From contig OZ024740.1 in the NCBI GenBank assembly GCA_964016885.1, positions 330,956,001 to 331,020,000 of the forward strand: 64,000 nucleotides of DNA, read 5' to 3'. The DNA comes from Eledone cirrhosa (lineage: Eukaryota). Position numbers and translations under genes: made by a program. The notes beneath the pieces were generated by a model. The model did not search any database, was not told the origin of the DNA, and was given only the letters and a program-made list of their open reading frames with translations. Shown here piece by piece: positions 2,335-48,391 of the stretch (position 1 is its first letter; each line of letters starts with the position of its first letter).

Positions 2335-2559
2335 TTCACCGTTATTCGAACTGTTTATGTTCGATATTTAAACACTCTTATCGAGGATTGGCGAATGTAT
2401 AGTTACATAACCATCTGTGGATCCGCCATCCCACTTGGCCCTTGTGTGGCATTATCACCACGCTGTATACGAACACACATAAACAAACAAACACACAGGC
2501 AGAATGGGCCCCAAAAATGAATAAGCATAAGTTTCATTGTAATGTAGTGTTCGAATGCC

Positions 2560-3492
2560 TGACTTAGTTTTTGTTTTTTAAGTTTTACCTCCCCCCCCCC
2601 CTCTTCTCTGTCCGTCCGCCTGCTTCTCTCTTCATTCTTATTTTCTTTACGTTTTTGGGGTTTCTTTTTTTGTTTTTGTTTTTCTCTGTTTATTTTTCCC
2701 GTTTTTGCTGTTGTTGCTGTGCTGCTTTGATTTTGTTGTTTGTTTTTTCTTTTTTCTTTTGAGTCTATCTATATATTTTGATGCCTTCCTCTTTGTTAGT
2801 AGTAGGAATTCTATAATGTGGAAGTAGCAGCCAGCAGGGAGAAGTGGGAGACTGGCGGCGGTAGCGATACTGAGACAGTGGTGGTCGTGATGTCGATACC
2901 GAGGCAGTGGTGGCGGTGATGTGACCGTATTACTGTAGTGATGGTGCTGTAGCAGTGGCAGCAGTGAAGGAGTCAAGGGGTGGTGGTGGCGGTGATGTGA
3001 CCGTATTACTGTAGTGATGGTGCTGTAGCGGTGGCAGCAGTGAAGGAGTCAAGGGGTGGTGGCGGCGGTGATGGGATAGTGGTGGTAATGATGACCGTAG
3101 TGAGCGGTGGCGGTGAAGGTGAAAATGCCGTTATCTGGCTGTTGTGTTTAGTGTACACAGATGATGGGGTGGGTGGTGTATCTAGTTTCTGGTGTTGGTG
3201 AGTTTGGCTGTCCTATATAGTGTAGACAGAGGAGAGGAGGGGGGGGGGTTCTTCTTCCATTTATAGCCATTTTCTTTTTTGGATATACAGTGTACAATAC
3301 AAAGTTGAATATTTGAATATTTGAGCCTTATAACAATATATTTTGGGTCCGAATTTTTTGGGGCTCAAGCCGGGTGCTTTACGTAGCATTTGTACTAAGA
3401 GTTGTTATTTCACAAATGATTTAAATATGTTAAAAATTCAAAACTTACGGGAGCGATTTCATGACCTCCGTCACCTCGTGCGTCTTCTTCCC
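2560..3492 (-). mobile_element. Putative decayed 5' end (UTR + ORF1 start) of a second L1/Tx1-like LINE, head-to-head with the element at 3564
   Basis: The minus strand starts GGGAAGAAGACG...AAATCGCTCCCGTAAG right at the TTA tract. ATG GAA GAA GAA CCC at 3260 lies ~230 nt in, followed by Thr/Pro-rich ACC tracts, a layout like the neighbouring ORF1. No catalytic motif seen. Confidence 0.35.
2907..3072. repeat. 76-bp tandem duplication (~2.2 copies)
   Basis: GTGACCGTATTACTGTAGTGATGGTGCTGTAGC...GAAGGAGTCAAGGGG begins at 2921 and again at 2997. Confidence 0.9.

Positions 3493-3563
<71 letters not shown>
3493..3563. repeat. (TTA)n microsatellite, ~23 units
   Basis: Direct reading; abuts the LINE 5' end. 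Confidence 0.97.
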
Positions 3564-3779
3564 GGCGACCTACGTAGTAAATCGTATCATCGTGAGCTCC
3601 GCAAAGGTTTGTTATTTTCAGTTATTTAAAATTGCCATTTATGTAAAATTTATATTGTTAACTATATATAAGTGCACACACATTGATTTCCTAAAAGGAC
3701 TCACAAAAATATTGGGGCCTTGAATCCAAAATTTAAACTTTTTATAATTATCAAACAAAATGTTTTTCTTTGAAAAATA

Positions 3780-5416
3780 ATGGATGACTCAGATTCACTC
3801 CTTCCTCACAATCCAACACCTCACACCGATACCACCATTGTAAACATTGCTACATTTGCCAACACGGGAATTGTAAGCCGTAGCAATATTTTAGATTTGT
3901 CTCAGGCAGACGTTCATTTCCCGCCATTACCAATGACTGCAGGTGTTAAAGCCGCCGCCACCACCACCACCACCGCAACAACCACCACCCCCACCACAGC
4001 GACAACAGAAACAAAAGAAAAAAATAAATTAACTGATGATATCGAAATGAATTCAACCAAAATGAACTCTTCCACACAGAACACCACTGACGCCACCATC
4101 ACCACCACAACTGAAACTAAACTTAACAATAGCAAAAAAAACGATAATAACAACAGCAACAATGAAATTAAGAAAACTACCCTGAGTTTTGCCAGAGTTG
4201 CAAAAACGTGCGAAGCGATCCAGGTAACTCAGGAAGAATTAGACGAAGCCAAAGGAATGGTAAAGGAAGATGTGTACAGGGTCAGCCTCACCCCCACCTA
4301 ATAAAATGGAGCAACGTCGCCTATGCACCGTGTCTTATCGAACAATAAACATAAAATCGCGCCGAGTGGAACGGGCATCTGAGTCCCAAATCCCAAAATC
4401 TTTGGGACATGTGTGGGAAAAAAAACCCACATCAGACGTGGGCAGAAGTATGGAACCGTGGACGTATTCTTTGAAACACCACAGGAGGCCAGAGAACAAT
4501 CCATGGCTCCATTAAGAAGTGACGACTTCACACTCATCCCAAGCTATTGTGGTCAGAGATTTGTGAAGATCAGGGTGACCCACGTTCCACCGGCCATCGA
4601 AATTCCCTGGCTAATGGCTGCCGTCCTCGCTGGCATCGCGTCCAACACCAAAATAATAGAAATAGCAAAAGAAAAGCAGGAGAACTGGTCCGGATCTGGG
4701 ATGGAGTTCCTGATCCAAGCCGACCATAAAAGCATTCAGGAGATCCCAGAGGTAATAGACCTCACTGACGGCAGCCACCTCACCGTAATTGTCGAGGGCA
4801 GAAGACCTAGGTGTGTCGTTTGTGGTGATGGAACCCACCTAAGGGATTTCTGCCCTCAGGTTAAAAGGTTGAGGCCACCTCTCTTACCCACCCCAGTGAG
4901 TCAACCATCAACACCACCAGCAGCAGAAATAGCAGCAACAACTGTAGCAGCAACAAGAGAAGCAACTGTAGCAGCAACAACCCCAGAAACAGTAGCAAAA
5001 CCAACACCACCACCACCCAACGCCCCAGAACTAGCACCAGCGCCTACACCAACCAGCACGCCACAACCAAAACCAATGCCTGTGGAGGATTTTCCACTCC
5101 CCGGCTTATCGCAACTGGAGTCAGATTGTGACGACGAGGAGTGGGAAACGGTATCAGGAAAAAAGAAAAAAAAAGAAACCCAAAAGAAAAAAATTATCTT
5201 CCTTCCCCCTCAAAAAACGAAATACAGAGGGAAACAAATAAATTATCGAACAAGAAAGTTAAGACAAATATGCCAACATCCACACCAGCATCACCAACCC
5301 CATCACCACAAACACCAACACCATCACCATCATTAACCCCAACACCACCATCACCAACACCACAAAAGTCACCAAAAAGTGTAACAGAAACAAACCCACA
5401 ACAAACGCAAACATAA
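3780..5416 (+). pseudogene. LINE ORF1 (gag-like RNA-binding protein), frameshifted
   Basis: Pieces 3780-4301, 4270-4515 and 4413-5336 join via two compensating frameshifts. CVVCGDGTHLRDFC is a CX2CX4HX4C knuckle; Pro/Thr-rich tail. Confidence 0.8.
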
Positions 5417-5653
5417 CAAAACAACCAAAACGATACACACTACACAGGATTAAATTTGAACAACAACCAATTATTACACTACATGCAACACAACACCCGC
5501 ATCACAGAAAAAGACTACACAACAACCCAAAAGTTCACACCACCTCCACACATACAAACACTCGCATCACACAGAAAACGTACACGACACTAAAACAAAA
5601 ATTCCCCAAACACATCGGAGACATCCCACAAACACTCTCGAGAAGTAAGGTAA

Positions 5654-8571
5654 GTGGTCTTCCCATCTTTTCCACTCCATTTCAACATCACCTCACTCAG
5701 AATAGGCAGCATAAATGCGCATGGCTTGGGGTCGTCATGGAAGCAGGGGCACCTGCTCAACAACCTCAGGTCACTAAACATAGATGTAGTGGCCATCAGC
5801 GAGACCAGAATCTCCGAAGCACGGGCCTTCGCACCGATCTTCGGCGGCTAAAATGTGTACGCATCTCCCAGCCGTCCGGGATCGGGGGGTGGAGTTGCTG
5901 TGCTTTTTCGGAGAGGTTTGGATCTCGCCATACGGGCCATCTTCCTGGACCCAGAAGGTAAGTTGGTGCTGCTAGACGTGACCGGCGGAGACGGGAAAGA
6001 TTTCAGGCTAGTGGCCGTCTATGCCCCGGCAGGAGCAGGGTGGCCTGATTTCTTCCGGCGTCTGGAGACCTTTCTTGGAACGTCCCGCTCTTTAGTGTTA
6101 GTGGGCAACTGGAACGGGATCTTAGATGAACGCTGGGAATGTGTGGGATTAGCGGATAGGGGAGGAGGGTGCAAGAGCCTCACCAACCTGCTCAGGCGTT
6201 TTGAACTGTCTGACAGGTACCGATTGGATTTCCCGAATGTACCAATGTGGACTTGGACAAATCGCAATTGGTCATCCAGATCATATCTAGATAGAGTATT
6301 TTGTAGAGATATATAGGTCTAGCATAGGCTGTCCACAATTCAAGATAGTCAGCTACACGGACCACAAATTCGTGATATGTGTACTTGACTTAGATAGTCT
6401 TCATAGACGAGGACCCGGCTACTGGAAGCTAAACGTGTCCTTACCAGCGCGCAAGGCCTACAGAGACCGGATTAGCGAACTAGTTAAGCGAGCGTTGACG
6501 GGGGCCATCGTCAACAACAAGTGGTGGTTTGCTCTGAAAAGAGCAATTAGAATAGAGTCCATTAGGTTTAGTAAGGCTTTAACAATAGTGAAAAATAGAG
6601 CAGAGGGAGAACTAGTTAGAAAATTAGACGAGGCGCTTAGCAAAGGCATCGCGACCGACGTACTTGCGGCGAAATTGGCCCTTGACCAATTCTTCAATGC
6701 AAAGCACGAAGGCTGCGTTGTCAGAGCTAGGGTGCGTGCTCTCAGACACGAGGGGACGAAAGCCGCTCAATGGGCCCGAGTGGCGGAGGCGCATCGTGGA
6801 AACAAAGCCCCGATCCTGTCTTTGGTGGACCACGACGGGCGCATGCTACTCGATCCCGGGCAAATATGTGAAGCTTTTCAGCGACACTTCGCTCAGTTGT
6901 TCGGAGGCAGCGGCGAGCCGGATCGAGGGATGGACTTTAGTGTCTACCTCGACGGACTGCCAGTCCTGAGGGCGGCTGGCTTTGGCCCGTTTTCAGAGGC
7001 TGGATCGCTGCCATGCACAGCGACATCTGCTCTGTGGTGAGAGTGAACGGTCACCTTTCGGAACCGTTCAACGTCATGCGCTCGGCCCGCCAAGGATATC
7101 CCCTCTCGTCCCTCTTGTACGTATTGACTCTCGAGCCATTACTGCACAAACTGGAGACGTTGAGGGGGGTCCCGCGCGAACTAGGATGCGGAAGATCCGT
7201 GTCAGCGTATGCGGACGATGTCACCGTAGTGGTGTCGAACGCCAAACACATCAAAGCGAACAGCACTACACTAAGAGAATAGGAAGCGGTGACAGGAGCA
7301 ATGATCAACCAGAAAAAGTCAGTGGGCCTGCAGCTCGGCACCTGGAGAGGCAGGTCCATGCCTTCCAACAGCGTCGTCGGGCGCTGGAAGACGGACCAGT
7401 TAAATTGCTCGGGGTCTGTTTAGCTCCGGATCTCCAGACGGACAAAAACTGGGACGAGGTGACGAGCAGGGTGGCTTCTCACCCAGATATGGGCCGAGAG
7501 GAAGCTATCCCTGAATGGTCGAGCGGAGGTGGCTAAGGCGTATATCGCGTCCGTCATCTACTACCGCCTGACCGTCGTACCTTGTCCTAAGCCCCGCCTG
7601 ACTGTGCTGGACCGTTTGCTCTTTCGCTTTTTGTGGAAAGGACGCGCTCCGATGGTCAGGTGGTCCATCTGCTGTCAACACCCGCTACGTGGAGGGCTGA
7701 GAATGCCATGGCTGATGATGCGCAGACACGCGCTCAGGCTACGACATCTCCACCTCTTCCTCGACGGTGATCATGTGTGGTCTCCGTTTGCTAGACACGT
7801 CTTTCCCCAGCTACCTCCTTGATGGAGCTGCATTCCTGGGTCAAGCGAAGACCGAGGGGGAACGCTTGGAGACTGGAATGTCTTCAGGCGCTCACAGACC
7901 TCGACCAATCGAGCAATGTGATCGGTGGAAACTCCACCTTGGCGTTCTATAGAGGATTAGTGGAGGGGAAGAGCGATGACGTACTTGGCGAAAGTCTAGG
8001 CGTCGACGAAAATCAACTAGCCAATCTCTTCGGAAGAACTTTCGAGCCGGGGCCTATGGACAACTTCCAGAAATCCCTGGCCAGGCAGTGCTACCGAGGA
8101 GCTTTTCCAGTTCGGGATAAACTCTACAGGCATGGAGGTGCCGTCAGCCGGGCATGTCCGAGATGCGCGCAGGGCGACGAAACCGTCCTGCACGCACTCG
8201 TCCAGTGTCCGAGCATTGCTGACTTGTGGGTTTATGTCGAACACCTGCTGTCGCGTGTGGGACGGATCCAGCTATCAGCTGAGTCCTTCGTGAGGATGGC
8301 CCCGCCCTCTTCCTTTAGCCGGGAAGGGCAGGCAGTTTTTATCTGTCTTGTGGCCATGGCGAAAGAGATAGTATGGTGGACACGTTTGAAAGGGCTGAAG
8401 ACGAGCACTTACCTCTTCGGTGATGCCCTGATTAACTTTTTCAAATTTCATTTGAAAAGGAAAATCAGGGTAGAATGTGAAATGCTCTCTTCCCAGCATT
8501 TTGTTGAAAGATGGGTGAGAGAGGCAAGAATGGCCCGAGTGAATGGGCCTACTCTGAGTATATGTCTGTAA
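5654..8571 (+). pseudogene. LINE ORF2 (APE endonuclease-RT-CCHC), with stops, frameshifts and an internal deletion
   Basis: IGSINAHGL, DVVAISET, VAVYAP, LVGNWN, SYLDRVF, GPGYWKLN; RQGYPLSSLLYVLTLEPL, SAYADD; CPRCAQGDETVLHALVQC. Confidence 0.9.
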
Positions 8572-8857
8572 ATTAAAGGTGGAAAACTGGGAGAGGGCAC
8601 TTGCCCTGGTGGTCAGGGTCACTGTGGAATTTTAATGGGCTTTCTCCACCAATGCCCCTCGGAAGTCTCCCCCCTATTGGTGAATTTTTTCATTGTTCTA
8701 TTATTACATCCTCTGTTTCTTGTTTTTTTTACACGCAGAAATGCCCATTTGTACCGTCCTGTATTGTCCTGCACTGTCCTTAATGTCTACTTTATGTAAA
8801 CCCTTGTGGTTAATAAAGAAACCATTATTATTATTATCATTATTATTATTATTATTA

Positions 8858-8888
<31 letters not shown>

Positions 8889-8989
8889 CATTATTATTAT
8901 ATATATGCATGTATATATATATATATATACATGCATATATATATTATTAATTCTGGCAATATTACACAAATATGACCCTCCCCAAGTAT

Positions 8990-9168
<179 letters not shown>

Positions 9169-9335
9169 TCAATGTGGTCTATCTTTTGTTATAGGGTCAA
9201 TACCGTTGTTAGAACTAAATGTAATCCGTTAGAACGTAATTCAGTGGCATCAAGTGATTGGTTCCGTGTTTCGCTGAGTCAATATTTTAGATACAGAGTG
9301 TGCTATATTACATGTTATATTATTTAACAATGATA

Positions 9336-9529
9336 GGGCGTTTGATTGGCAGTATCGGTAGAAGGCTGGACGCCATGCTTTGCAGTATAGAGATACAGCC
9401 CTTTATGATCTAAGTTCAAATCCCGCCGAGGTTTGCTTTGCCTTTCAAAGTACAAGTCACGCACTGAGGTCGATTTAATCGACTTTCCCCTCCCCCCAAA
9501 TTGCTGGCCTTGTGCCTATATAAGAAACC
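9336..9529 (+). mobile_element. tRNA-derived SINE, copy 1
   Basis: A-box-like TGGCAGTATCGG, B-box GTTCAAATCC, tail GGCCTTGTGCC...AGAAACCATTATT; 12-bp TSD ATTATTTAACAA at 9319-9330 and 9530-9541. Confidence 0.85.
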
Positions 9530-11236
9530 ATTATTTAACAAAGACAAGGAAGTCAAATTATTTTCCATAATTACATGAATTATGTAAATCACTTTGCCTT
9601 TGTTAACATTGTTAAATAATATATGTAATATATATATATGTATAATATACCCGGATGTGAATCTAACTATCCACACACACACACATATATAGAGAGAGAA
9701 GGAGAGCGAGAGAAAACAGAGTGAGGAAGAGAGTATCGGAGTAGAAGGGTAAAGAGAGATATGAATTAAGATATATATGCGTTCCCACTCAGCATTTTCT
9801 GCATAGAAAACTCCAGGCTCGATATTAAGCGATACACCATCTCATTCCCAGCTAGAAACTTTTTCGTCTTTAAATCTATGAATAGGTAGATCAAATAAGA
9901 ATATGTATCTGTTTTAAACCTGAATGGCGATGCACGCCTGCACTACGCAATCTAATGAGTATTTCATAAATGTAACATTTGTCATATTTTACTTCTCTCA
10001 TGATTTAAAAAACATAGCTTACATATGTGAAAGATTGTTAGATTATGAAATCTTTGGTTGCACTGTATTTCAGTGTGTACTCATCATAATAAATTGGATT
10101 CGTATATATAGAGATCGCTCTTTCTTCTTTAACATATTTTCGCTATGTGTAAATGTGTGTGTGCATGTATTCATATGTGTCAGTGTGTACGTGTGTGCGT
10201 GTGTGTGTATTTGATCGGAATCAACTATAATGATATTTAAAATGCTTCTGGTTATAAAAGAATACATTTTATATCCAAACCATTGATTTATGAATATTCT
10301 TTCTCCTTAAGCATTTATTCAACTGTCATCTTGTTCTATAACATATTTTTTCATAGAATGCCTTAACGTCTGAACTCTTTCTGTCAAGAACATGTGATCA
10401 CTTATGTGGTGAAAGTGTGGACAGCAAATAAAAAAAAACTCACTTATCTTTTCATAAGACTGATAAATACTTCTATTTTGTGTAAATTCTGTTTTCTTTT
10501 ATAATCAGCTGGATAAATTAATAGGTTAATTACTAGATGAAATCGTAAATCTTGTATAGAATTGTAAGTATATTAGTAAGAATAGTGAATCGTGGGTCAA
10601 ATTTTGGATTACATCGTAGGTAAAATGAAGGATAAAATAGTGAATTCTGGGTAAATTGTACCTAAAAGATCTTAAACCTAGCGCATTCCATTAATTTGCA
10701 GATAGTTAATGAACATTGCAATAATTGAGAAAAAAGAGACAAAGGTTGCTCCCTATGCAAGAATGGTATTTTATTTATCGACAGGATGAAAGTTTTGATT
10801 TGGACTCTTATTGCAGCATCATACGGAATTCGCATCCATATACATTCTGTATCAGAATGTTATAACCGTAACCCGGTGTATAACCCGAGATTGCTTCTCG
10901 CATATGAATATTACTTATCGATTTCTCATTGTTTTTTTCCGAAATAATCTACGACAAAATTGCCTGTTGTTTTTCATTATTCCATGGCCAAACATAAAGA
11001 AAGGGAATATTATAAGTAAAACCACTGCTGTGCATATTTTAGCTGTAGCAACTGAACATGTCTGACCTAATCCTTATGGTAAAATCGATATATATATAGG
11101 TATATGTACATGCATATGTACACACACACACACACATATATATATATTCATATATATATATATTCATATATATATATCGTTTCTGAATTTGCGTGTGTTT
11201 CTTATTGGCAACATGACCCTCCCAAAGTATAACAAC

Positions 11237-13990: not shown

Positions 13991-14070
<80 letters not shown>

Positions 14071-14191
14071 GAATCGAACATCATTAATGTCCTGTATAAC
14101 TAATATTACGTACATATGAATATATATATATATGTGTGTGTGTACGTGTGCATACTTACATATATATATATATATATGTATATATGTATAT

Positions 14192-14222
<31 letters not shown>

Positions 14223-15437
14223 CATATATATACATATACACTTACATATATATATATTTGTATGTGTATGTATGTGTTTGTAGTTATATACACAGAATGT
14301 GAGCATAGATTTCAGAATATAACCGGACTGTTGAACAAATATATTCAATATATGAGGTAGGAATTTGCATCCTTAGCGGCTGATGTAATCATAGTTTTAA
14401 AATAAAACTCGCTATGCATATTTGCATCATTATCACTATAGCGGCAATTTTAATATATATTCCTTACCACAGTTATACTTGACAAATTCTCATATGAAGC
14501 TTCTTATTAAAACTGATACTTTGATTATTAAGGATATTTATGTACGATATACTGCTGCCATTCATATTCTTCCCTATGTGAGTGAATATCAAACTTTATA
14601 AACTAATACTTTGATCTCTATATATAAGTTAGGAAGCGAATCCTCTTACTGATGTTTCTTTCAACTCATCCTTTGATGCATTTGTAAGCCGCAGGCCCGT
14701 CTATATCAATATATTTCAATTCCTAAAGACTCCACTAATAACAACATTTCACGAATGATAAGATATATGTAAACTATATGAAAGCAAATATTTACAAAAG
14801 AAAAATATACAAACGTTTATGATCTTAATTTCAGCAATGTTGGTGGTGACAATCTTACAATGGAAATATTTACCTTATATATTGGAATTATTCTGATATG
14901 AGTATATTTCTCTCCATATTAAAGAGACCCACCGGAAAGTTAATCATAGCAGTTGATTATTTTAGAGATATATAATGTATAGTCTATTGCGAACTTTCCA
15001 TATATTGGAACCTCATTTGTGTGATTGCTTTTGGAAAATGTTTCACGTCACTTATTTCAATTTTTCAACAACAGAAAGAAAACTAAAAGCTATAAAGTCA
15101 CAGATAACACATCAAGGAACTAAAATTATGTTAAATATGTTGTTAGGATGTAAAAAAGATGATAATGTGACTCATCAGATGTATATATGAATGATAATGT
15201 GGCCCGATGACTACATTTAAGAAAAATTGTTGTCAAAATAGAATTGATTATTTTATCTTGTGTTCATCGTTCTCCTTCAAACAGTTAAATACCCGTGAGT
15301 CTTATGTGCAACCAAACTTTCAGCAACAAAGCCACGAAGCCTTCATACATATATTCTAGGCTTGCTGACCACAATAATAAGCTATAGTAATATTTCTTAC
15401 AACTTAAGTCCTGATTCGAAAAGTGAAAGACTTTCAC

Positions 15438-15637
15438 NNNNNNNNNNNNNNNNNNNNNNNNNNNNNNNNNNNNNNNNNNNNNNNNNNNNNNNNNNNNNNN
15501 NNNNNNNNNNNNNNNNNNNNNNNNNNNNNNNNNNNNNNNNNNNNNNNNNNNNNNNNNNNNNNNNNNNNNNNNNNNNNNNNNNNNNNNNNNNNNNNNNNNN
15601 NNNNNNNNNNNNNNNNNNNNNNNNNNNNNNNNNNNNN
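15438..15637. other. Assembly gap (200 N)
   Basis: Run of N. Confidence 1.
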
Positions 15638-15783
15638 AAGCATAGAGTTACGCCCCTTTATGATCTGAGTTCAAATCTCGCCAAGGTTAACTTTGCCTTT
15701 CATCCTTACAGGGTCGATAAAATAAAGTACCAGTAATACACTGGGATAATTGATGGCCTTGTGCCAAAAGTAGAAACAATTAT
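15638..15783 (+). mobile_element. tRNA-derived SINE, copy 2 (5' end lost in gap)
   Basis: GAGTTCAAATCTCGCCAAGGTTAACTTTGCCTTTCATCC...GGGTCGATAAAATAAAGTACCAG and tail GGCCTTGTGCC...AGAAACAATTAT. Confidence 0.85.
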
Positions 15784-15809
15784 CTATAGAATGTCAATGT
15801 TATATAAGC

Positions 15810-15867
<58 letters not shown>

Positions 15868-15906
15868 GATATTAATAAATGGAAACTATATTTATAAAAC
15901 CACATT

Positions 15907-15971
15907 TATTTCATTATACATATTTCAGGGATACCAAATTAAATTATGGTATGCCTTCATCAGACAAAATA
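15907..15971 (-). ncRNA. Minimal type I hammerhead ribozyme motif
   Basis: Minus strand: TATTTTGT CTGATGA AGGCATACCA-loop-TGGTATCCCT GAAA TATGTA TA ATGAAATA. A decayed second copy (CTAATGA core) lies ~330 bp away at ~16237-16299. Confidence 0.75.
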
Positions 15972-16044
15972 CAATATATAACAGTTTTACAAATAAGCTT
16001 CGACGTACCCTTTTAAAATGCAACCATTATTTTTGGAAGCCAAC

Positions 16045-16102
<58 letters not shown>

Positions 16103-17039
16103 TAGAAGGGGTATTTAATTTGTTGGAATTCCGACAAATATAAATGTTTATAACTGATTTAGAGCACTCAACAGTTTACTGGCGTAAATATTCAATGATA
16201 TTAAATAAATGGAAACTATATTTATTAAACCATATTTATTTTATTATATAAATTTCAAGGCTACCAAGACACATTGGTACGCTTTCATTAGCTAAAATAC
16301 AAAGTTTGTTTTATAAATAGAGACATACCCATGGAAATCATACATTATCGGTTGAAAATTCAATGGATAGTGGCAATATATTAGGGATTTTTCAAACTTA
16401 TGTGTGAATATGCAAATGAATATGTAAATAATTGAAAACCAACCGTTTATTTAAACGACTATGGAGAGAGAGAGAAGAGATAAGAGGAGAAGTATAAAAT
16501 AGGGCGAGAGAGAGAGAGAGAGAAGAAAGAAACAAGTGAAGATGAATAAAAACTCATATAACGTTAATTTGAGGGAAATATATTGTAAGTATATATCTTA
16601 ATAGTACGTGTATTTCCGATTATTAGTTGTTTAAAATTTCTTTATAATATAATATTTTTCTTCTCTTATAAGTAGATAAATAAATAAATAAATGAATAAA
16701 TAAATAAATAAATAGATGGGTATATCGTTTTATCGATAATCGATCTAATGATTTATGAGGGATAATGGTTTTGTATTTAATGTAAATAAATATTAAGTAA
16801 AATTAAATTAAATTAATTGAGTTAATAAGAATATTTATATTTATATGATTTAAAATGGGAAGATACGGAAAAAACCCCGGTTTAATTTATTTATTCGTTA
16901 GTGTGAGACTATTTAGTCAAAATAAGTATAGATGTTGAAAGATACATTTAGCCAGAATCAGTTAGTGGTTATAAATCTATTGAAAACATATTGATTTTAA
17001 ATTATAACTGATTGCTAAATAAGGGAATTCTTTAGGATT

Positions 17040-18757
17040 TCTTCTTCTGTAAAAGATGTACCTTTACCTAAGAATAAGGACTATTTTAAACAACTCATTG
17101 AGAAATCTGACTCCTTTATACGAAGACTTAGATGGCGTGCCTTCCATCTCGATATAAAATCAGATGTAAACACAAAATCCAGTTACACAATCCAGTTACT
17201 TCGATATGATCTTCAAATCCAAGAAAGTTTCACCTAACAACAAACTATTAATGGAATTTGAAAATGAAATAATATCGATTATACAAAACATCAAATTCAA
17301 GAAAAACCAATTTGTAGGGCAGGAATACCTTGAAACCCTCAATGATAATATAGACAATCTTGAAAAAATTGAGAAGATCCTCGTAAAATCTGACAAACTA
17401 ACAATTTATACGGAATGCAAAAGGATGAATACAATAACCTTATATTGAAAGAACCAAGGAAAAACAACTAATGAAGATATTGAAATGGTAAATACAGAAG
17501 CTTCTGAAATAATTCATAAATTAGGCATCGAAAATAGGGCAGAACCCTTTATACATAGAAGACCGAAAATTAACCTGAAAGACCACAAAAGAAACTTTGA
17601 AATAGAACTACCAGTCAGACCTATAGCACCATCTAAATCAGACTTAGGCATAGTTAGTAAACATATATTAGATAGAATCATACCGCAGCTTAAAGAAATA
17701 TCTTACCTAAAACTATTGAACGGTTCAATAACATAAAATTTAAACATAAAAAAAATTCATTCAAATGTATATTGTAAACTACTACTCCTCTATTACTCCT
17801 AGTTTACTTAATAAAGCTCTTATCCATGCATCTAAACATACAGATTTATCTAGCAAAGAAATGCATATCATTTTAACTGCACGGAAAACTTTAATTGAAT
17901 TCAACAATCATCTCTGGACAAGAGCCGATAAAAAAAATAATTTTGATATCACCCTAGGATCATCTGACTCGGCGCAAATAACGGATCTTGTGGGGCTATT
18001 TATTAATAATACACTGCATAGAAAAATACCAGACATGACCGGTAGTTTATATCATGATGATATGCTGCTTTTAACTGAACATCACAGTAATTGTGAAATT
18101 AATAGGAAAAGAAAATCCATAATACAACTCTTCAATAGTTACACACTTAAGTTAGAAATAGAGAATAACTATAAAATTGTTAACTTTTTAGACGTAACAT
18201 TAAACCTTAACACAGGGCTCTATTATCTATTCCATAAAATTAATGAGAATCTAAACTATGTAAGTTTTAACTCTAATCATCCTAGATCTATCAAGAACAC
18301 TATTGTCAATTCTGTTCAACAACGGATTTCACGCATCTCCGCTAATAAAAACATGTTTTACCATAAGGCAGAATATTATAGTGAAGGTTTAAATAGAGCA
18401 GGGTATATCATTAAGATTAAATACATCGACAACAGTAATAAGGCTACTAATAACCCTACTATTAATTGTAATAATAATAACAAATTTAACTTAAACTTTA
18501 AAATTAACAGAAGAACTAGAACTAGAAATATTATTTGGTACACACCCCCATTCTCATTAAGCGTAAAAACACCTTTAGCAAAGCTATTTTTTAAAGCACT
18601 AGATAAATGTTTTACTAAAGCCCACATATAGCACTCAATCTTTAACAGACATACTATAAAACTATCCTACTCTACTACTATGAACATAGTACAAAATATA
18701 AATAGAATTAATAATAGAAATTTAAACTCTAACCAAAATAACCAAAATAGCAGTATA
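17040..18757 (+). pseudogene. Decayed Penelope-like element RT (same broad clade as 53724-56165), 3'-truncated
   Basis: KDVPLP...FIRRLRWRAFH; INLKDHK...RPIAPSKSDLGIVSK; DITLGSSDSAQITDLVGL; LYHDD; VNFLDVTLNL; SNHP; IIWYTPPF. Contains stops and frameshifts. Confidence 0.88.
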
Positions 18758-18767
18758 ATAGGGTGGG

Positions 18768-18811
18768 ACCGTCCTGACGAAGGCCAGTTAAGCCTGAAAT
18801 GTATAGACGGT
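18768..18811 (+). ncRNA. Minimal type I hammerhead ribozyme motif
   Basis: ACCGTC CTGACGA AGGC-CAGTTAA-GCCT GAAA TGTA TA GACGGT. Confidence 0.88.
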
Positions 18812-19090
18812 TGTCCCCCTTGCTTCTTCTGGACATCACCAGAGGGCGTTAGCCCCCCGTTGTTTGCATAGCTACGGCTTCCTAAAACCGTATTTCCTTG
18901 GAGATACGAAATATTTATACATATTTTATAAAGCTATGCTTGAGGCGAAACACTATTTCCTTTTTATGATAAGTTGAGCGAACTTATGCAGCTTCATATG
19001 CAAATGGGATTAATCACCTTATTTACACAGACGAGAAATGTATATATTCTCGCCTGTCTTCTAGTTCAGCAGTCGCAGGCTGTGGGTGGG

Positions 19091-19134
19091 ACCGTCCTGA
19101 CGAAGGCCAGTTAAGCTTGAAATGCATAGACGGT
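19091..19134 (+). ncRNA. Minimal type I hammerhead ribozyme motif
   Basis: ACCGTC CTGACGA AGGC-CAGTTAA-GCTT GAAA TGCA TA GACGGT; palindromic stem III (ATGCAT). Confidence 0.9.
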
Positions 19135-19579
19135 TGACCCCCTAGCTTCTGCTGGACATCACCAGAGGGCGTTAGCCCCCCCCCCCCCCCCCCGCGGTGT
19201 TTGCATAGCTACGGCTTCCTAAGACCGTATTTCCTTGGAGATACGAAACATTTATACATATATATATATATACTCATACATATGTATGTGTTGTGTGTGT
19301 ATGTGTGTGTGTATTTAGCTACAAAAAAAGAACAGTCGTGTTAAAAGTATATATTGAGACTGGCCACAGAATATAAGATTGACATGCATCTCGAAACCTG
19401 TAATATTTGATAAAAATTAACTGTTTATTCAATCGGATTAAAGAGAATGAAATTTCAAATATACTTCATTGTTTCCTTCTCTTACAATTTAAGCTTAACC
19501 TACGATTTGTGTAGAAATTTATCAACTTATACAACTATCTCTATCTATCTATCTATCTATCTATATGTCCCTCTGACTC

Positions 19580-19640
<61 letters not shown>

Positions 19641-20078
19641 GGCAGCAGCACTATGAGCGTGTTACACATAATAATTGTGTATATAAAAGCACATAATATA
19701 TATATGTGCATCAATAAGCATATGGGTCTGTTGCTATTAAAGAGAAAGTATATTTTCCATGACAAATAAAAGTTTCTGTTTTTACTCGACGAACGCGTCA
19801 AAGATTTGTCCGTGGTAGCCGAGAATGCAAGACGGTGTTGGTTCAATATTCCTTAATTATTTTACATTCATTCAACCGATAGTGAGATGGAAATACGTGA
19901 GAATTTACATAGTTTTACATCGTAAACTTTTGTTGGAGGTCCCGTTATGCATGTAATGTGAACTTGCCTGGTTAAAACTAATTTGCATTAGCGCTAAATT
20001 AGCACTGAGATAACATTAACAGTATATGAAATTGAGTGGTATATATGTGTGTATTTTTCTGTCTGTCTCTGTGTGTGT

Positions 20079-20176
<98 letters not shown>

Positions 20177-21479
20177 TGGTGCGTGCGTTTCTATGTGTTT
20201 AAATGTACTCGCGCATGAAGTTAATAAATACATATATAAATGAACGTAAATGTATATCTGAAATACGGAAAGTAATTCTATCGTTTACGTTCACGTGAAT
20301 GGCATATTCATAATTTGGTATATCCCGAAGAGCAGACTCATTCAAAAGGTCATCATAATTTGTATATTAGTAGGGTACATGTTGGAACCTAATTTACCTG
20401 TTTATAAATGTGTGCGCAAAGCAGCGGATGTGTATGAAACATGTCTATATATATATATGGAATATATGTAACCAAGTTTGTGTAAATGTGTTTATAAATT
20501 GCTAAATTCTTCAGTATATTGAAATATAACATGCAAATATTCATATTTTTCCTCTAAAGTGAGAACACATAAACACGTTTAACGAGTTACACATAGCTTA
20601 GTTTGACTGGTATATCACGAAAACAAATACAAAAAACAACTAATCGAAGGCCTTATCATACACTATCACAGAATCAGGAAATTAATGCACAAATTAGCGT
20701 ATTATGAGAGCTCTTTTTTAGTAGCGAAATCACATTTATATTAAATTATGCACTAAACAGCCGATTTATATGCTAAGATTATATCTGTATGCAGAGATGT
20801 TTGGTGTACACATTTACACACTTTTAATATATAAACATGTCAATCATATGTTGTTCACTAGATTATATACATGCCTTAAGATCAAAGCGCTCTAAATATT
20901 TATCTATTTTCAAATAACAACGGAATAAATATATTTGGCATGTATATATGTCTAAGTACTAAAACCGTCTAAATTTATATAAAGATTTACTCACTATTGT
21001 TTTTATTTTCTATTCAGCATACGTTCAGATATAATTTGGTACATATTTCGGGTGCTTAGTTCTAACTTAATACATGCATTCACTAGTCTATTTTGATTGA
21101 TTACCAGGTCAGACGTCTGGATTTATGTTGAATAATGCCTTTACACTCAGAACCTCAAAATGACCCAGAATAGGCGACTGAAGATGGAAATTAAACGCAT
21201 GTTTCTTTGGATATGTTTATTTGTTTCATTCTCATATTATAAATACATATTATAAATACATATATATATATGTATTTATAATATGAATATATATATATTT
21301 GGTGTGCGGGTACAGGCGTTGCGTGGGTGTTTGTATGTGTGCGCGTGTTTTTGTCTACGTGCTTGTACTTGCTTACCCATGGCGGGTGTTTTCGCGTAGG
21401 CATGTGTATATGGATGCGTGCATGTATATATTTATTTCTGTTGATTTCAATAACCTCTGTAATTTATTTACATTATTCT

Positions 21480-21886
21480 TAACTCTGAAGCCGAGAATCA
21501 TTCGGTTTCCTAAATGGATTTTTAGTCTACGACTTCATTTATACCATAAACGTAGTTTTGTCTTTGCGTGTAATTGTTCTCAACGCTTCACATAATGACG
21601 TATTATCTCGGTTTTTTTCCGTTCTTTGGCAGGGAAAGTCTCCACGAACCAAAGTATCGTCTTCCTGTTTTCCTTCGGCTGCAACGATTTTAGAAATATT
21701 TACTTCTGCGTTCACATATTGATTTTTTTAGTTTCAGAAGATCCCGTTAAGGGGGAAAGCAGCGATTCTTTGCTTAAACTTTAATCTGTTATTTTAATAA
21801 ATATATGCTCTAGGGTCCTTATATATTTGATATATATTTATCCTTATCGAGTCCTCTTTGGATTTTAGTCTTCAAAATTATTAATA

Positions 21887-21890
<4 letters not shown>
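21480..21890 (+). repeat. Interspersed repeat (PLE pseudo-LTR-like); related copies at 24222-24630 (-), 25138-25380 (+), 37790-37997 (+), 62405-62435 (-)
   Basis: Shared AAAGTATCGTCTTCCTG...TTTCAGAAGATCCCGTTAAGG...AAAGCAGCGATTCTTTGCTTAAACTTTAATCTG. Confidence 0.8.
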
Positions 21891-21978
<88 letters not shown>

Positions 21979-22819
21979 GAGGGAGATAGATATATAAGCG
22001 GCGCACTCAAGGCCGCTGATCGTTTATGATGTCCTGTTTCAAGCGCCGAAATATCTATGATCTGTGGTTAACAGCTGATGAAGTATTTCTTCTCTAGTTT
22101 TGCCCAAATTACCATCTTAAACCCTGTTTACAGTAACCACACAGCTTGCTTCGTTTCTTATATATCTATATATATATGTATATCTATCTATCTATACATA
22201 TATATACATACATATATATGTGTGTGTGTGAGTGTGTCTGTCTGTGTCTGTGTATGTACGAGCGTGTGTGTTGCTGTATTATTGCTGTATGTACGAGCGT
22301 GTGTGTTGCTGCATTATTTATGTGCTTATTGAATATTTAGCAAAGTATATATAAATATATAATAATCACACCTATACCATACACCCAGCTTTCTAAACAC
22401 ATTCACACATTTTATGTGTGAAAACTATATATTCATCGCTTTAAAGAAATAAAATAAAGCATTCTGACTTTTCCCACGCAATAGAGTTCGTTTTGCGATC
22501 GATTATATGATATCAACAAATATATATTAACAATAAATAATGAATTATGACCAACTCTTTAGAAGTATTGATACATAACTGTACTTAAAATATTGATCAA
22601 TGTGTTTCCTGTAATATATCAGGCAAATGTCCCAATCCACGAAGAAAGAAAAATGGCAACTTTGTAATGTATTTATATAGTCTCAATATCAGAATTATAC
22701 AAAATGTGTTATTCGTCTGGTATGTTAATGGTTTGTGATACTGGTAAAACTGATAGGTGTGTTTGCCGAAATGGCTTTATATGTATAAGTATGTGTACAT
22801 GTATAGACACACGGACACA

Positions 22820-23010
<191 letters not shown>

Positions 23011-23059
23011 AAAAATTGAACGGCAACAAAACAGAGAGGCAGTACGAACAAATGTTTAT

Positions 23060-23706
23060 TAGTTTCACGCTCTTGAGAGTGGGGTGGTGGTGGGGAACGA
23101 CGTTTCGGGCATAAGCCCTTCTTCAGGTGAAAAGTGTGTGGGAAGAGAGTTCCAAGGGTGTGTAGGGGAGTGGTGGAGAGACATATAGAAAAAAGGGGGT
23201 GAGAGGAAACGGTACAAATGAAATTAAATATAAAAACATAATAAAAATTAAAATAAATATGAAGTAAAACAAGTGGTGGAAGGGTGAGGGGCGTGTAGGG
23301 GTGGTGACGGGTGGAGTGGGGAGAGGGAGGCGGGGTGTCCGAGTGGGCAGAGCTGAGGGTGGTGTGTGTGTATAGGTGTACGTGTGTGTGTGTGTGTGTG
23401 TATGTGAAAGTAAGAGTTGGGGGAAGAACGGGGTTACATGTTCAGGAAGAGGTGTGTGTGGGGTGGGGTGCAGGTTGGAGTGTGTGTGCGTGTGTGGATG
23501 GGGAGGGGTCAGGGAGGTGGTGGGAGAGGATTCCAGAGGCTGAGTGTGTAAATATGTGGTGGTACGCACGTGTGTGTGTGGTGTTTATGCGTGTTGTGGA
23601 TGTAGGTGGCGTGTGGGAAAAATTGTTTTTGAGTGTAAGTCAGTGGGTAATATCCTTGGGATGTGGTGGAATCTAGGGATCGATGTTCAATATGTGTAAT
23701 CCGTGG
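23060..23706 (-). mobile_element. PLE pseudo-LTR fragment with a Penelope/Poseidon/Neptune-style hammerhead core (23097-23130)
   Basis: Minus strand: TTTTCAC CTGAAGA AGGGC-TTAT-GCCC GAAA CG TC, then AATAAA ~45 nt downstream; sits between (TA)n tracts. Confidence 0.65.
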
Positions 23707-23793
<87 letters not shown>

Positions 23794-24103
23794 GTATGTA
23801 TATATATATATATATGTATTTCTTTCGCCCCCTGTCACGTCAGTTAACTCTTCCTCACACTTCCACTCACTCACTCACTGTTTCTCCTCTTCTTTCACTT
23901 CGCCCCGATCGCGACGAAAACATTTTCTCTCTTTCTCACATTTGGATTCGTTCCCGAAAGGTCTTTTTCTAACCGCTCATATATTCACCTAGCTTATGCT
24001 AACAGAATAACTATGTAGCTTGTTCCCTTCCTTCTACGGTTAACTTATTTTATTACATGTTATCCATGTGCAACCTGCAGTATTCTTCTCCCCATATTTT
24101 CAC

Positions 24104-24211
<108 letters not shown>

Positions 24212-24221
24212 ATATATATTT

Positions 24222-26572
<2,351 letters not shown>

Positions 26573-40984: not shown

Positions 40985-43900
40985 CCATCATCACACATGT
41001 CCGGCAAACACTACTAGACTTCCAAGACAAGTATTGGACTAGAATCACATATAGTGATTTATACTATATCACTATGGTGTCGATGGATTCCGCCCAGGTA
41101 AGGAACTTGTGAGCCTCTTTCTCCTACATAATTTAAATTCCTCTTTTACCCACCTCAAAGTTGGTCTATTTGGCGATAACTTCTTCTTCTGTCTAACAAT
41201 CTTAGTCTCTCAGCAATTGAGAGAAATAAAAAAACAAATTAGGAATTTCCTCAAAGATTACTATAATTTTACTATTACTTTTGAAAATAGCACTAAAGTG
41301 GTCAATTTCCTCGACATCACTTTGGATCTATCAACAGGCATTTACCAACCCTACCATAAACCAAAACAAAACCTGCATTATATAAACTCACAATCTAACC
41401 ACCCTGGTTTCATACTAAAAAATCTAGTGTACAATATCTCACTCAGATTATCTAAATTATTATCTATTGAATAAATATTCTATAAAAATGAACCTTATTA
41501 TAATGAGGCTTTAAGTAGAATTGACTACAAAGATAAAATATTTTACATACCTAATGCTATAAATACCTCCAACATACAACCAAACATAAACAACAAACAC
41601 CATATAATCACCTAAAAGTTAATGCCAGCAATAAAGCACCGAAAAACCTAGATCCTACCATTACTCCTAGTACTCGCATTAACATGAATGATACAAACTC
41701 TCTAAAAATCATCAATCCTAACGCTTCTGAATACTTCTATAACCTAACTAATAATATTACTACAAACCATACGAAAACACCTAACTCCATTAATCTTAAA
41801 AAAGCAGCTAATAATAACATCTTATATCTTAATTCTCACAATAAGCCTAATGATCTATTACCTATTTCATTGAACCTTCCACCTAACCAAACCAGTTCTT
41901 TACAATCCAATAAACCAGAGAAACATATCCGAACTACTATACATGACAAGAATAAAACCAAAATATCACGTCCAATCAATAAGGCTCCATTAATAAAACT
42001 CCCAATATCATCTATAAATCTAACAAAAAACAATAAATAAAATACTAATACAATTCAAAAATCTACTAAACAATTTGTTCACACTCCTAATAACAATCAC
42101 AATATTATAGTATCATCTGATAAGAAATTCTACCCTCAAACTCATATACATACCCAATATGACAATAGGAAACCAATTAGGAATCATAAAATGCTCCATT
42201 TAACTTGCAAACTATGGGCCAAATGGCTAAAAAACCTTTGGCAATTCTCGATAAACATTTCACACCTAACCACAAATACCATCAAATCTTAAACAGATAT
42301 ACAGTATAATTTTCTTACCCCACATCGAACAATATACAACAACAAATAAGTGCATATAACATCTATAAATGTAAAAAAAAGCTGCATGTATACCCCTAGC
42401 ACACCACACACAAACTAACTATAATAATACTACAACGTATACCTAAAATATTATTACTTATCCACCAATTACATCCACTCACTCACCTCACCAACAAAAT
42501 ACATCAGCCTACAACCAACTACCATCTTCCTCATCCTTAATATGAACTATGAACTACATACCCAATCTGACCAATAACTTCCAAAATAACCATGATTCTA
42601 TATACACTATATCCCCTATAAGTTCACCAACTAACAACCCTTCTAGCCATGACCACCCAACCGCAACCCTTCTCTCTCATATAAAAATGTAAATACAAAT
42701 ACTAGCACTATTATTGGGAATATAGCAAGCACATCTGAAACCCTATGTACAAATGGTTGTAATTGTAGAGTAAAAAGTAAGTGACCCTTAAATGGAAATT
42801 GCTTAATTAATAATATAGTGTATAAATGTATAATTACCACTAAGGACTCTAATCAATCCTATATTGAATGCACATCTAATCCGTTTAAATCGATATTTTA
42901 TGCACACACCCACAATTTTCGAAACACAAGATTAGCTAATACCACTTCTTTAGCGGAAGCAGTTAATAATTGTAAAAAGAAGAACATTAATTATAACCAA
43001 ACTTGGATGATTCTCAAAAGAGCCATTTCTTACCAGGGCAAGAGAAAGGAGTGTGGACTATGTTCCCAAGAAATGTTTGAAATTACTAAATCGAAAGACA
43101 TTCTATTAAATAAAAGACAGGAATTAATTATCGCATGTAACCATAGAATTAGAAAGGCATTTAAGTATTATAAATATAAATGCAACTAAATAAATGAATA
43201 AAAAATATAAAAGAAAAAAAAAGAAAAAAAAGATATATATATATATATAGCTATTAGAATTAATCCATAGATTCAATCCTATGTATCATCCCTATAACTG
43301 TTTTAAATAATTAACTATTAATGAGCACTATATATTAAATTATATTCAAAACTCTAACAAAACTTTAACAGACATACATTTAAGCCTATTAAGAAAACCA
43401 GATTATTAATGAGATTTTATTTCGAAAATAAAATTCCCTACAAATAAAACGTCATTCTGACCACTCTAACACAATACAATACTTACACACATTTTATTAT
43501 TTCCTTACCTGTATATTTTTTTATCTAAATTTTACCTTTCTTTGGTTCCATCTACATTCCTCTACTTGTTCTATTTTTAGAACAAATGATTCCTCTTGAA
43601 CAAAGAAATAACAAATATTTAGGATTGTTCTATACTATTCTTCTAGATATAACACACTGATTTCTGCACCCCTTTTCCTCCAACTTTAATCTTCCATGAC
43701 CGTCCACACTTTTCTATACACTCTGTCTAAATTCCTTTACACTCGTAACTTTCTTTTCTTTTCTTAAAGGTCATTCGATACCCCATCCCATGACTGCTAA
43801 TTTATTCGTTACTACTACCAGCATAATGATCTATATTGCCCTTTCCTATTTTTACTATTGGTCAATCTCACCCTTGTTCTTAAAAGGTTACTTATTCATA

Positions 43901-47143: not shown

Positions 47144-47344
47144 TATGTAGATAAATCTACCAAGAGTTTACGGTAGTGTCCAATCCGTATGAAGAACTCA
47201 ATGTATTCCGGATATCATGGAAAGAAGAGATGTAATGAAAAATCACTTTCGGTGAAAGATAAACGGTATACAGAGTCAAGATAAAATATTAAACAAATAA
47301 TGAATAAAACAATGAAACAGTTCCTTATATTAAACAAAAAAAGT

Positions 47345-47496
47345 TCATTATTTAACGATCGTTTCTAGGATATATATGTGTTAGAATGTGCATGCATATT
47401 CAACAGATCTATGTACAAAATTATACAAAATTATACAAACTATCAAGATTAAATATACATACCAACACATATATACGCCGTCTTCAGAAATAATGA
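47345..47496 (-). ncRNA. Hammerhead motif with ~115-nt stem II (inverted-arm copy)
   Basis: Reverse complement of TCATTATTT CTGAAGA ... GAAA CGATCG TT AAATAATGA. Confidence 0.7.

Positions 47497-48132: not shown

Positions 48133-48182
<50 letters not shown>

Positions 48183-48322: not shown

Positions 48323-48391
<69 letters not shown>

What the first reader, a model, noticed from the sequence alone, without database searches (positions are those of the whole stretch)
18761..19260. 323-bp hammerhead repeat with octamer, PSE-like and TATA-like motifs: a satellite-2-like retrozyme
Seen: two hammerheads exactly 323 nt apart, so double cleavage would release a non-coding monomer. Within the unit, upstream of the second ribozyme, are ATGCAAAT (18998-19005), TCACCTTATTTACACAG (19014-19030) and TATATAT (19041-19047). 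There are also small hairpins (TACGG/CCGTA, CGTATTTC/GAGATACG). Established: amphibian satellite 2 is a ~330-bp hammerhead repeat transcribed from an internal snRNA-type promoter (octamer + PSE), and non-LTR retrozymes form small circular RNAs. Inference: an invertebrate equivalent that carries its own promoter and borrows PLE RT; it abuts a truncated PLE. Caveat: ATGCAAAT occurs several other times in this AT-rich window.
Basis: partly seen in the sequence, partly recalled or inferred. Interest (0 to 1): 0.78.

Follow-up and report, generated by a model that had tools for sequence, protein, structure and literature searches.

The report
Hammerhead retrozyme with candidate snRNA promoter
This is one old copy of an abundant, protein-free jumping repeat whose 323-base unit carries a predicted self-cutting RNA (a known kind, the animal retrozyme); it was likely pasted in by a Penelope-type enzyme, and it holds a cluster of signals that may be its own small-RNA-gene promoter, which is untested.

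Summary
Observation confirmed. Two type-I hammerhead cores lie 323 nt apart (18774, 19097) in 1.5 tandem units (18761-19261) that end in (TA)n; all three motifs are where stated. Public contigs show a large, homogeneous family in which the sequence upstream of the ribozyme is normally the unit's own end, so this is a non-LTR retrozyme and not the pseudo-LTR of the neighbouring element. The neighbour is a dead Hydra-type Penelope-like ORF that stops before its endonuclease; the fusion looks rare. The promoter stays open. For: octamer, then PSE-like core, then TATA appears in 5 of 20,000 shuffles and 0 of 386 window tiles (criteria chosen after seeing it), the spacing is close to insect snRNA promoters, and family majority letters keep the octamer and TATA. 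Against: each motif alone is common, the TATA sits in the loop of a strong RNA hairpin, the family is too young for conservation to tell anything, and neither host snRNA promoters nor RNA could be examined. Verdict: new member of a known kind, with newt satellite 2 as the reported precedent for the promoter. Interest 0.42.

The parts
17037..18760 (+). Dead Hydra-type Penelope-like RT ORF, near-complete at its 5' end, frameshifted, with stops and a damaged RT motif A; breaks off just before the CxCx5C linker and GIY-YIG endonuclease
   Evidence: tblastn 38-49% to the intact 813-aa ORF at 53724-56162, BLASTP 47% over 225 aa; no endonuclease hit in 14000-25000
18761..19083 (+). Full 323-bp unit of the retrozyme (43% GC, longest ATG frame 42 aa even when read as a circle)
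   Evidence: contigs join 19083 back to 18761
19084..19261 (+). Partial second unit (equals 18761-18924) with an 18-C run at 19176-19193; its end is the 3' end of the insertion
18767..18812 (+). Type-I hammerhead 1; predicted cut after 18805; helix III palindrome carries a private C-to-T change at 18802 (G-U wobble)
   Evidence: family majority C at 18802
19090..19135 (+). Type-I hammerhead 2; predicted cut after 19128; perfect ATGCAT palindrome in helix III, suited to a dimeric ribozyme
   Evidence: 6-bp duplex between the two helix III strands, -4.7 kcal/mol
18806..19128 (+). Predicted 323-nt monomer released by double cleavage; folded as a circle it re-forms helix I across the junction
   Evidence: pair probabilities 0.82-0.99; overall fold not unusually stable (z -1.5)
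18866..18939 (+). Multi-hairpin domain closed by an 8-bp stem; the insertion's 3' end (18924-equivalent) falls inside it
   Evidence: z -2.8
18961..18965 (+). T5 run, a potential Pol III terminator in this copy; lies in a region that varies between subfamilies
   Evidence: loose ends at 18965 and 18970
18998..19005 (+). Octamer ATGCAAAT
   Evidence: no variant at 10% or more in X1
19010..19030 (+). PSE-like box; T19014, C19015, C19017 fit the most conserved insect PSEA positions 5, 6, 8; family majority has C at 19020
19027..19057 (+). RNA hairpin whose loop holds TATATA (19041-19046) and whose 5' arm overlaps the PSE-like box
19262..19320 (.). (TA)n then (TG)n microsatellite, the right flank of the insertion

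Best explanation
The stretch is a one-and-a-half-unit copy of an abundant non-coding 323-bp hammerhead repeat, a metazoan non-LTR retrozyme, that was likely written into a (TA)n tract by the reverse transcriptase and endonuclease of a Hydra-type Penelope-like element. Shown: the anatomy, the family's abundance and tandem joints, the (TA)n flank, the fusion to a dead PLE ORF. Inferred steps: (1) tandem copies are transcribed past two ribozymes, likely from the octamer/PSE-like/TATA block 40-85 nt ahead of the ribozyme (about even odds) or else by read-through; (2) the two hammerheads pair through their palindromic helix III and cut out a 323-nt monomer, which a host ligase would close; (3) a PLE RT primes inside the hairpin domain about 119 nt past the cut site and copies more than one unit; (4) at this locus the enzyme likely went on to, or the copy landed in, a PLE sequence just ahead of its endonuclease, giving a rare chimera. 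Both units have since gathered about 4% private changes, so this copy is a fossil of an active family.
For: Two complete type-I cores with 7-bp helix I, 4-bp helix II and palindromic helix III, the 'canonical' metazoan layout of PMC4209133 rather than the long-helix-II PLE form. 2,925 contigs of run X1 lie on 376 bases. The best-supported loose end before 18761 is the unit's own 3' end (24 contigs in X1; 37 in X2), and contigs join 19083 back to 18761 in both runs, also 2 raw reads in X5. Summed contig depth is 58,000-178,000 over most of the unit versus 2,700 at 18741-18753 and 2,000-9,600 in the PLE RT core (the tool warns that this is no copy number). No coding frame over 42 aa. Size and GC fit the class (170-400 nt, under 45% GC). 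Both units share C at 18897 where 95% of family depth has T, as expected from one template. Right end in (TA)n, the stated target of Hydra PLEs; 3 listed contigs also stop matching at 18924 with 6-10 letters left. Internal RT initiation some 85-90 nt past the hammerhead cut is shown in vitro for an anole PLE (PMC11167929). An intact Hydra-type ORF is in the same window.
Against: No RNA, cleavage or circle was observed. In PMC-held preprint 10.64898/2026.07.22.740005 only 1 of 9 predicted Xenopus dimers cleaved in vitro. Only 6 of 200 loose ends and 8 of 2,970 pieces were shown, so a link of some units to another, unseen PLE family is not excluded. Depth rises to 13,000-49,000 in 18499-18733, which I cannot explain. 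No second, inverted arm of this element is in the window, unlike the two-armed pattern that other notes describe. It is not shown that organism A is the window's own species (no piece spans the locus; 223 of 2,925 contigs are 99% alike or more).
Confidence: 0.78

Rival explanations
1. Retrozyme as above, but the octamer, PSE-like box and TATA are not a promoter: they are chance matches and by-products of RNA hairpins, and the family is transcribed by read-through.
For: TATA is the loop of a strong hairpin whose arm overlaps the PSE-like box. 117 sites in the window match a recalled vertebrate PSE consensus as well or better (3 mismatches). ATGCAAAT occurs 12 times and TATATA about 2,000 times. 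The octamer is 8 nt from the PSE-like box, whereas the DSE is normally at -250 to -170 (PMC9652321). TATA starts at PSEA-position 32, not 34 as in fly U6. One RAD read stack reads ATGCGAAT at what looks like the matching place (95 reads, possibly one locus). A review states that retrozymes seem to carry no promoters (PMC7761336).
Against: The ordered triple occurs in 5 of 20,000 shuffles of the unit and 0 of 386 window tiles (criteria set after the fact). It lies 40-85 nt ahead of the ribozyme, which puts a start at about 19070-19080. Compact octamer-PSE-TATA cores exist (84-bp mouse H1 core, PMC11340601). Newt satellite 2 has an snRNA-type promoter (cited in PMC2220036).
Confidence: 0.45
2. 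The unit is the ordinary pseudo-LTR of a Penelope-like element, here duplicated as a partial tandem.
For: It abuts a PLE ORF in the same orientation; PLEs carry hammerheads in their pLTRs and form partial tandems; vertebrate retrozymes are reported to be homologous to pLTRs.
Against: The ORF breaks before the endonuclease, so the unit does not follow a stop codon as a 3' UTR would. Other copies of this PLE run on into different sequence at 18740-18752, and units are normally preceded by their own 3' end. No similarity to the region upstream of the intact PLE in the window. The ribozyme has the short helix II of retrozymes, while the other hammerheads in the window have long ones.
Confidence: 0.1
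3. A U6-type (Pol III) SINE-like element: the block drives a transcript of about 215 nt that starts near 19072, is trimmed by one hammerhead and stops at the T run, so no full monomer or circle is made from it.
For: PSE plus TATA specifies Pol III in vertebrates; T5 at 18961-18965, T6 with the majority letter at 18960; the insertion's 3' end lies 36-40 nt before that run.
Against: Such an RNA would lack the promoter and could not regenerate whole units, yet whole tandem units exist. The T run varies: 18964 is C or A in about half of the low depth there, and one common subfamily end has no T run of four.
Confidence: 0.1

Closest known systems
Metazoan non-LTR retrozymes of coral, mussel and axolotl (Cervera and de la Pena 2020, PMC7229834: passages and sections 14, 17 read; Li, Clavereau and Pollet 2026, 10.64898/2026.07.22.740005: parts 1-3 of 5 read, supplements closed)
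   Same: Non-coding tandem unit of about 320 nt, under 45% GC, one type-I hammerhead per unit with palindromic helix III, high copy number, co-occurrence with PLEs, proposed PLE mobilisation.
   Different: A promoter-like block inside the unit, which the review PMC7761336 (one passage read) says retrozymes seem to lack; a direct fusion to a Hydra-type ORF at this locus; no RNA evidence here.
Newt satellite 2 (Coats, Zhang and Epstein 1994; not read, seen only as a title and one sentence in PMC2220036)
   Same: About 330-bp hammerhead repeat with an internal snRNA-type promoter; here a 323-bp unit with octamer and PSE-like box ahead of the ribozyme.
   Different: Promoter shown experimentally there (Pol II, per PMC2220036), only predicted here; a TATA-like box is present here; no sequence comparison with satellite 2 was possible; that its promoter has octamer plus PSE is recalled, not read.
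Hydra-clade Penelope-like elements (Craig et al. 2021, PMC8557442: passages and section 11 read)
   Same: The window's intact ORF has RWR, DKT, CxCx5C, GIY-YIG-like, CxxC and CxH motifs; the dead neighbour is 38-49% identical to it; insertion into (TA)n.
   Different: The 323-bp unit itself encodes nothing and is not that element's pLTR; the neighbour lacks the endonuclease.
Type-3 and snRNA promoters (human, PMC9652321; insects, PMC1761439; mouse H1, PMC11340601; passages read)
   Same: Order octamer, PSE-like, TATA; T5-C6-x-C8 core; downstream box at PSEA positions 32-39, overlapping fly PSEB (30-37) and U6 TATA (34-41).
   Different: Octamer only 8 nt from the PSE core; spacing matches neither fly class exactly; lies inside a transcribed, hairpin-forming repeat.

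Membership tests
Metazoan non-LTR retrozyme | Type-I hammerhead in each of at least two consecutive tandem units | tested here: met
Metazoan non-LTR retrozyme | Short (about 170-400 nt), low-GC, non-coding unit | tested here: met
   323 nt, 43% GC, longest ATG frame 42 aa
Metazoan non-LTR retrozyme | Many genomic copies, tandem joints, independent of a coding element | tested here: met
   2,925 contigs on 376 bases; unit-type loose ends and 323-nt back-joints; only part of the loose ends shown, and organism A may be a relative
Metazoan non-LTR retrozyme | Self-cleavage and linear or circular monomer RNA | not testable with these tools
   No RNA run was listed; cleavage needs an assay
PLE pseudo-LTR | Repeat directly follows the ORF stop and precedes the next ORF copy | tested here: not met
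   ORF breaks before the endonuclease; no ORF after 19261
PLE pseudo-LTR | Minimal hammerhead with 7-8-bp helix II and 4-5-bp helix I (PMC4209133) | tested here: not met
   Helix II 4 bp, helix I 7 bp; PLE ribozymes vary, so this is a weak test
Satellite-2-like element with snRNA-type promoter | Octamer and PSE-like box upstream of the ribozyme, beyond chance | tested here: inconclusive
   5 of 20,000 shuffles, 0 of 386 tiles, but post hoc; single motifs common
Satellite-2-like element with snRNA-type promoter | PSE matches that of the host's own snRNA genes | not testable with these tools
   No genome held; a metagenome scan for U6 genes gave 3 chance matches
Satellite-2-like element with snRNA-type promoter | Motifs more conserved than the rest of the unit | tested here: inconclusive
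   Only 5 positions of the unit are polymorphic at 10% or more in X1; octamer and TATATA are not among them, but neither is most of the unit
Satellite-2-like element with snRNA-type promoter | Transcription start behind the block, dependent on it | not testable with these tools
   Needs 5' end mapping and reporter assays
Hydra-clade PLE (neighbouring ORFs) | RWK-like, DKT, CxCx5C, CxxC, CxH motifs, C-terminal GIY-YIG, under 3 kb, (TA)n targets | tested here: met
   Intact ORF 53724-56162; no tree was built; the dead copy keeps only the RT-side motifs

The most novel reading that the evidence does not exclude
An invertebrate retrozyme family that carries a working SNAPc-type promoter inside each unit, placed so that transcription starts about 50-60 nt before the self-cleavage site and each copy in a tandem switches on the next one; and the junction at 18760/18761 records a Hydra-PLE reverse transcriptase passing from the retrozyme RNA to its own RNA in one run, a direct footprint of the borrowed enzyme.
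Probability: 0.4. Interest if true: 0.65.

Novelty: new member of a known kind. Interest (0 to 1): 0.42.

Why it matters
Animal retrozymes are known, but how they are transcribed and which enzyme moves them are still proposals. A review says they seem to lack promoters, with newt satellite 2 and a schistosome repeat as reported exceptions. If this block is a real snRNA-type promoter, self-promotion would reach a distant invertebrate lineage and become easy to test in a young, abundant family. The fusion to a Hydra-type ORF and the (TA)n end name the likely helper. If the block is chance, the finding is one more ordinary retrozyme among many in this genome.

Tried and rejected
Whole-genome search: no genome is held, so copy structure comes only from laid contigs and reads. 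Rfam: no hammerhead model hit in the window or in 18600-19250. Pattern scans for the ribozyme found nothing in metagenome, viral or prokaryote collections. A scan for animal U6 genes with a TCACC core gave 3 loci, all chance matches on reading. No RNA holder listed among 7 runs; this says nothing on expression. X4 (organism B) gave 12 short pieces under 95% alike, only one of the 8 listed in the unit: not used. Earlier notes by sequence, relatives and near place: nothing. Pfam found no family in either PLE ORF; the 110 homologues carried no names; no solved structure matched. Search for a second inverted arm or for the missing endonuclease half near the element: none. The hairpin at 18889-18908 followed by GAAA looks like a decayed second hammerhead core; rejected, no helix III or cut site can form. 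My first reading that several contigs run far past 18924 was wrong: record coordinates follow the contig's own strand, and only 6-10 letters remain. Literature searches gave no paper on mollusc snRNA promoter sequences and none joining retrozymes with PSE or SNAPc among the rows listed (15 of 40; 15 of 4,965); subscription papers and bioRxiv supplements were not visible.

Full report
Observation. The window is AT-rich and full of microsatellites. Two hammerhead cores lie on the + strand at 18774 and 19097, 323 nt apart. Each has a 7-bp helix I, a 4-bp helix II, GAAA, a palindromic helix III (ATGTAT, ATGCAT) and a UA cut site, with predicted cuts after 18805 and 19128. The two helix III strands can pair with each other over 6 bp, as in the dimeric ribozymes drawn for tandem repeats in PMC4209133 (part 1 of 4 read). 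The repeat runs from 18761 to 19261: one full unit and the first 164 bases of a second, with 8 substitutions and a C-run grown to 18. It ends in (TA)n at 19262. The three motifs are at the stated places. Rfam does not detect these ribozymes.

The neighbour. Upstream, 17037-18760 is a dead Penelope-like ORF in the same orientation, 38-49% identical to an intact 813-aa ORF at 53724-56162. The intact ORF has RWR, DKT, YRDD, CxCx5C, a GIY-YIG-like motif, CxxC and CxH, which match the description of the Hydra clade, said to insert into (TA)n (PMC8557442 section 11); I built no tree. The dead copy has frameshifts, stops and a damaged RT motif A, and breaks off just before the endonuclease linker; no endonuclease sequence lies in 14000-25000. 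So it is cut at the 3' side, and the unit does not follow a stop codon as a pseudo-LTR would.

The family. No genome is held. One search listed 7 runs, none on record as RNA; I laid 4 of them. In contig run X1, 2,925 contigs lie on 18715-19090. Summed depth is mostly 58,000-178,000 in the unit (lower where this copy differs from the family), 2,700 just before the junction, and 2,000-9,600 in the RT core, while single listed contigs have depth about 5-45. The tool warns that this sum is no copy number; I read it only as 'very abundant, and far more so than the junction'. The best-supported loose end before 18761 is the unit's own 3' end (24 contigs in X1, 37 in X2, one sample), contigs join 19083 back to 18761, and other PLE copies go on into different sequence at 18740-18752. 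Only 6 of 200 loose ends and 8 of 2,970 pieces were shown. Depth of 13,000-49,000 at 18499-18733 is unexplained. Whether organism A is the window's species is not shown.

Age and ends. At a 10% threshold one search lists 19 rows. Fourteen positions differ from this copy in 73-100% of depth (13 of them in 95% or more), and only 18836, 18889, 18964, 19040 and 19058 are clearly polymorphic. The family is therefore young and uniform, and this copy has about 4% private changes; the second unit has its own 5. Both units share C at 18897 against a 95% majority T, as expected if one template gave both. Three listed contigs stop matching at 18924 with 6-10 letters left, the same place at which unit 2 meets (TA)n; this is modest support for a fixed 3' end about 119 nt past the cut. 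For an anole PLE, reverse transcription starts inside the RNA 111-118 nt into the ORF, with the hammerhead cut 26 nt into it (PMC11167929, parts 1-2 of 4 read): a similar geometry. I found no inverted second arm in the window.

The promoter question, for. An octamer, followed by a T[CTG]ACC core, followed 20-40 nt later by TATA[AT]A, occurs in 5 of 20,000 dinucleotide shuffles of the unit and in 0 of 386 tiles of the window; I set these criteria after seeing the sequence, so the figures flatter it. Aligned on the most conserved insect PSEA letters T5, C6, C8, the TATA box falls at positions 32-39, between fly PSEB (30-37) and fly U6 TATA (34-41) (PMC1761439, passages and section 10). With a PSE 40-70 nt before the start (PMC9652321, passages), the start would be about 19070-19080, just ahead of helix I. 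An 84-bp mouse H1 core holds octamer, PSE and TATA together (PMC11340601, passages). Family majority letters keep the octamer and TATATA and change one letter in the PSE-like box. Newt satellite 2 is cited as having an snRNA promoter used by Pol II (PMC2220036, passages); I did not see the original paper.

The promoter question, against. ATGCAAAT occurs 12 times in the window, and octamer plus TCACC is reached by 13 of 100 shuffles of the window. The PSE-like box has 3 mismatches to a recalled vertebrate consensus, and 117 sites do as well or better. The TATA is the loop of a hairpin at 19027-19057 that 0 of 200 shuffles match and whose 5' arm is the end of the PSE-like box. The family is too uniform for conservation to tell anything. 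One RAD read stack has ATGCGAAT at what looks like the octamer's place. A T5 run at 18961-18965 would stop Pol III before the next ribozyme in this copy, though that region varies among subfamilies; unit-length RNA therefore needs Pol II or read-through. A review states that retrozymes seem to have no promoters (PMC7761336, one passage). The decisive comparison with host snRNA genes was not possible; a metagenome scan gave only chance matches. Other AI notes on this genome report similar blocks in other retrozyme families and say that they resemble host snRNA promoters. I did not check them and count them as leads; they prompted. My odds for a real promoter went from 25% to about 45-50%.

Mechanism. 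Most likely a tandem copy is transcribed through two ribozymes, which cut as a dimer and release a 323-nt non-coding RNA (longest frame 42 aa) that re-forms helix I as a circle. A Hydra-type PLE enzyme then nicks (TA)n, primes inside the hairpin domain 18866-18939 and copies more than one unit. At this locus it either switched to a PLE RNA just ahead of the endonuclease, or the copy landed in an AT-rich site of an older PLE whose 3' half was lost. I favour the switch (about 55 to 45), because the right flank is (TA)n and not the PLE's continuation, and because private changes in the PLE part (at least 27 in 1,060 bases, list cut at 40 rows) are of the same order as in the unit. All these steps are inferred. 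Cleavage is not assured: only 1 of 9 predicted frog dimers cut in vitro (10.64898/2026.07.22.740005, parts 1-3 of 5 read).

Comparison and verdict. The element meets the sequence-level definition of metazoan non-LTR retrozymes (PMC7229834, passages and sections 14, 17; preprint) and fails that of a pseudo-LTR of its neighbour. It may work like newt satellite 2, but membership of that kind rests on an untested promoter. In my searches no listed paper describes an snRNA-type promoter in an invertebrate retrozyme; subscription papers and preprint supplements were not visible. A repeat annotation of an octopus genome (PMC13282606, passages) does not mention ribozymes; that the host is an octopod comes from other notes and the look of the sequence, not from a test here. 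Novelty: new member of a known kind. Interest 0.42; 0.65 if the promoter and the template switch prove real.

Noticed in passing
window 53724-56165 (+), with 51855-51217 (-) and flanks 47144-53600 / 56600-60050: Intact 813-aa Hydra-type PLE ORF with an inverted, 95% identical 3' fragment upstream and several 99% identical copies of its upstream region in both orientations; by eye a hammerhead core with a very long helix II lies near 53230. A candidate recently active helper.
   Followed up: partly
window 15963 (-), 16293 (-), 28322 (+): A second, AT-rich hammerhead family with long helix II; the two minus-strand copies are 330 nt apart but separated by (TA)n, and the one at 16293 has a damaged core.
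   Followed up: partly
window 37106 (-) and 37317 (+): Two back-to-back copies of another hammerhead element, each ending in (TA)n at a different distance from the ribozyme: a two-armed insertion.
   Followed up: no
window 23126 (-) and 60283 (+): Further single hammerhead cores with short helix II, each followed by (TA)n within about 120-200 nt.
   Followed up: no
window 25547-26095, 40996-43174, 44674-44922: More Hydra-type PLE fragments, several holding the endonuclease part.
   Followed up: no
window about 3770-8820 (+) and 1-2450 (-): A broken LINE with a zf-RVT domain, flanked by (ATT)n, and by eye a second LINE-like coding stretch on the minus strand.
   Followed up: no
window 19071 and 19077, run X1: Two contigs stop matching here and run on for 102 and 277 letters that were not placed on the stretch. 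This is the predicted start region; insertions at the start site, as other notes describe for Tx1 LINEs, or a diverged subfamily could explain it.
   Followed up: no
window 18499-18733: Summed contig depth rises to 13,000-49,000, well above the PLE RT core, suggesting an abundant derivative that holds this part of the PLE.
   Followed up: no
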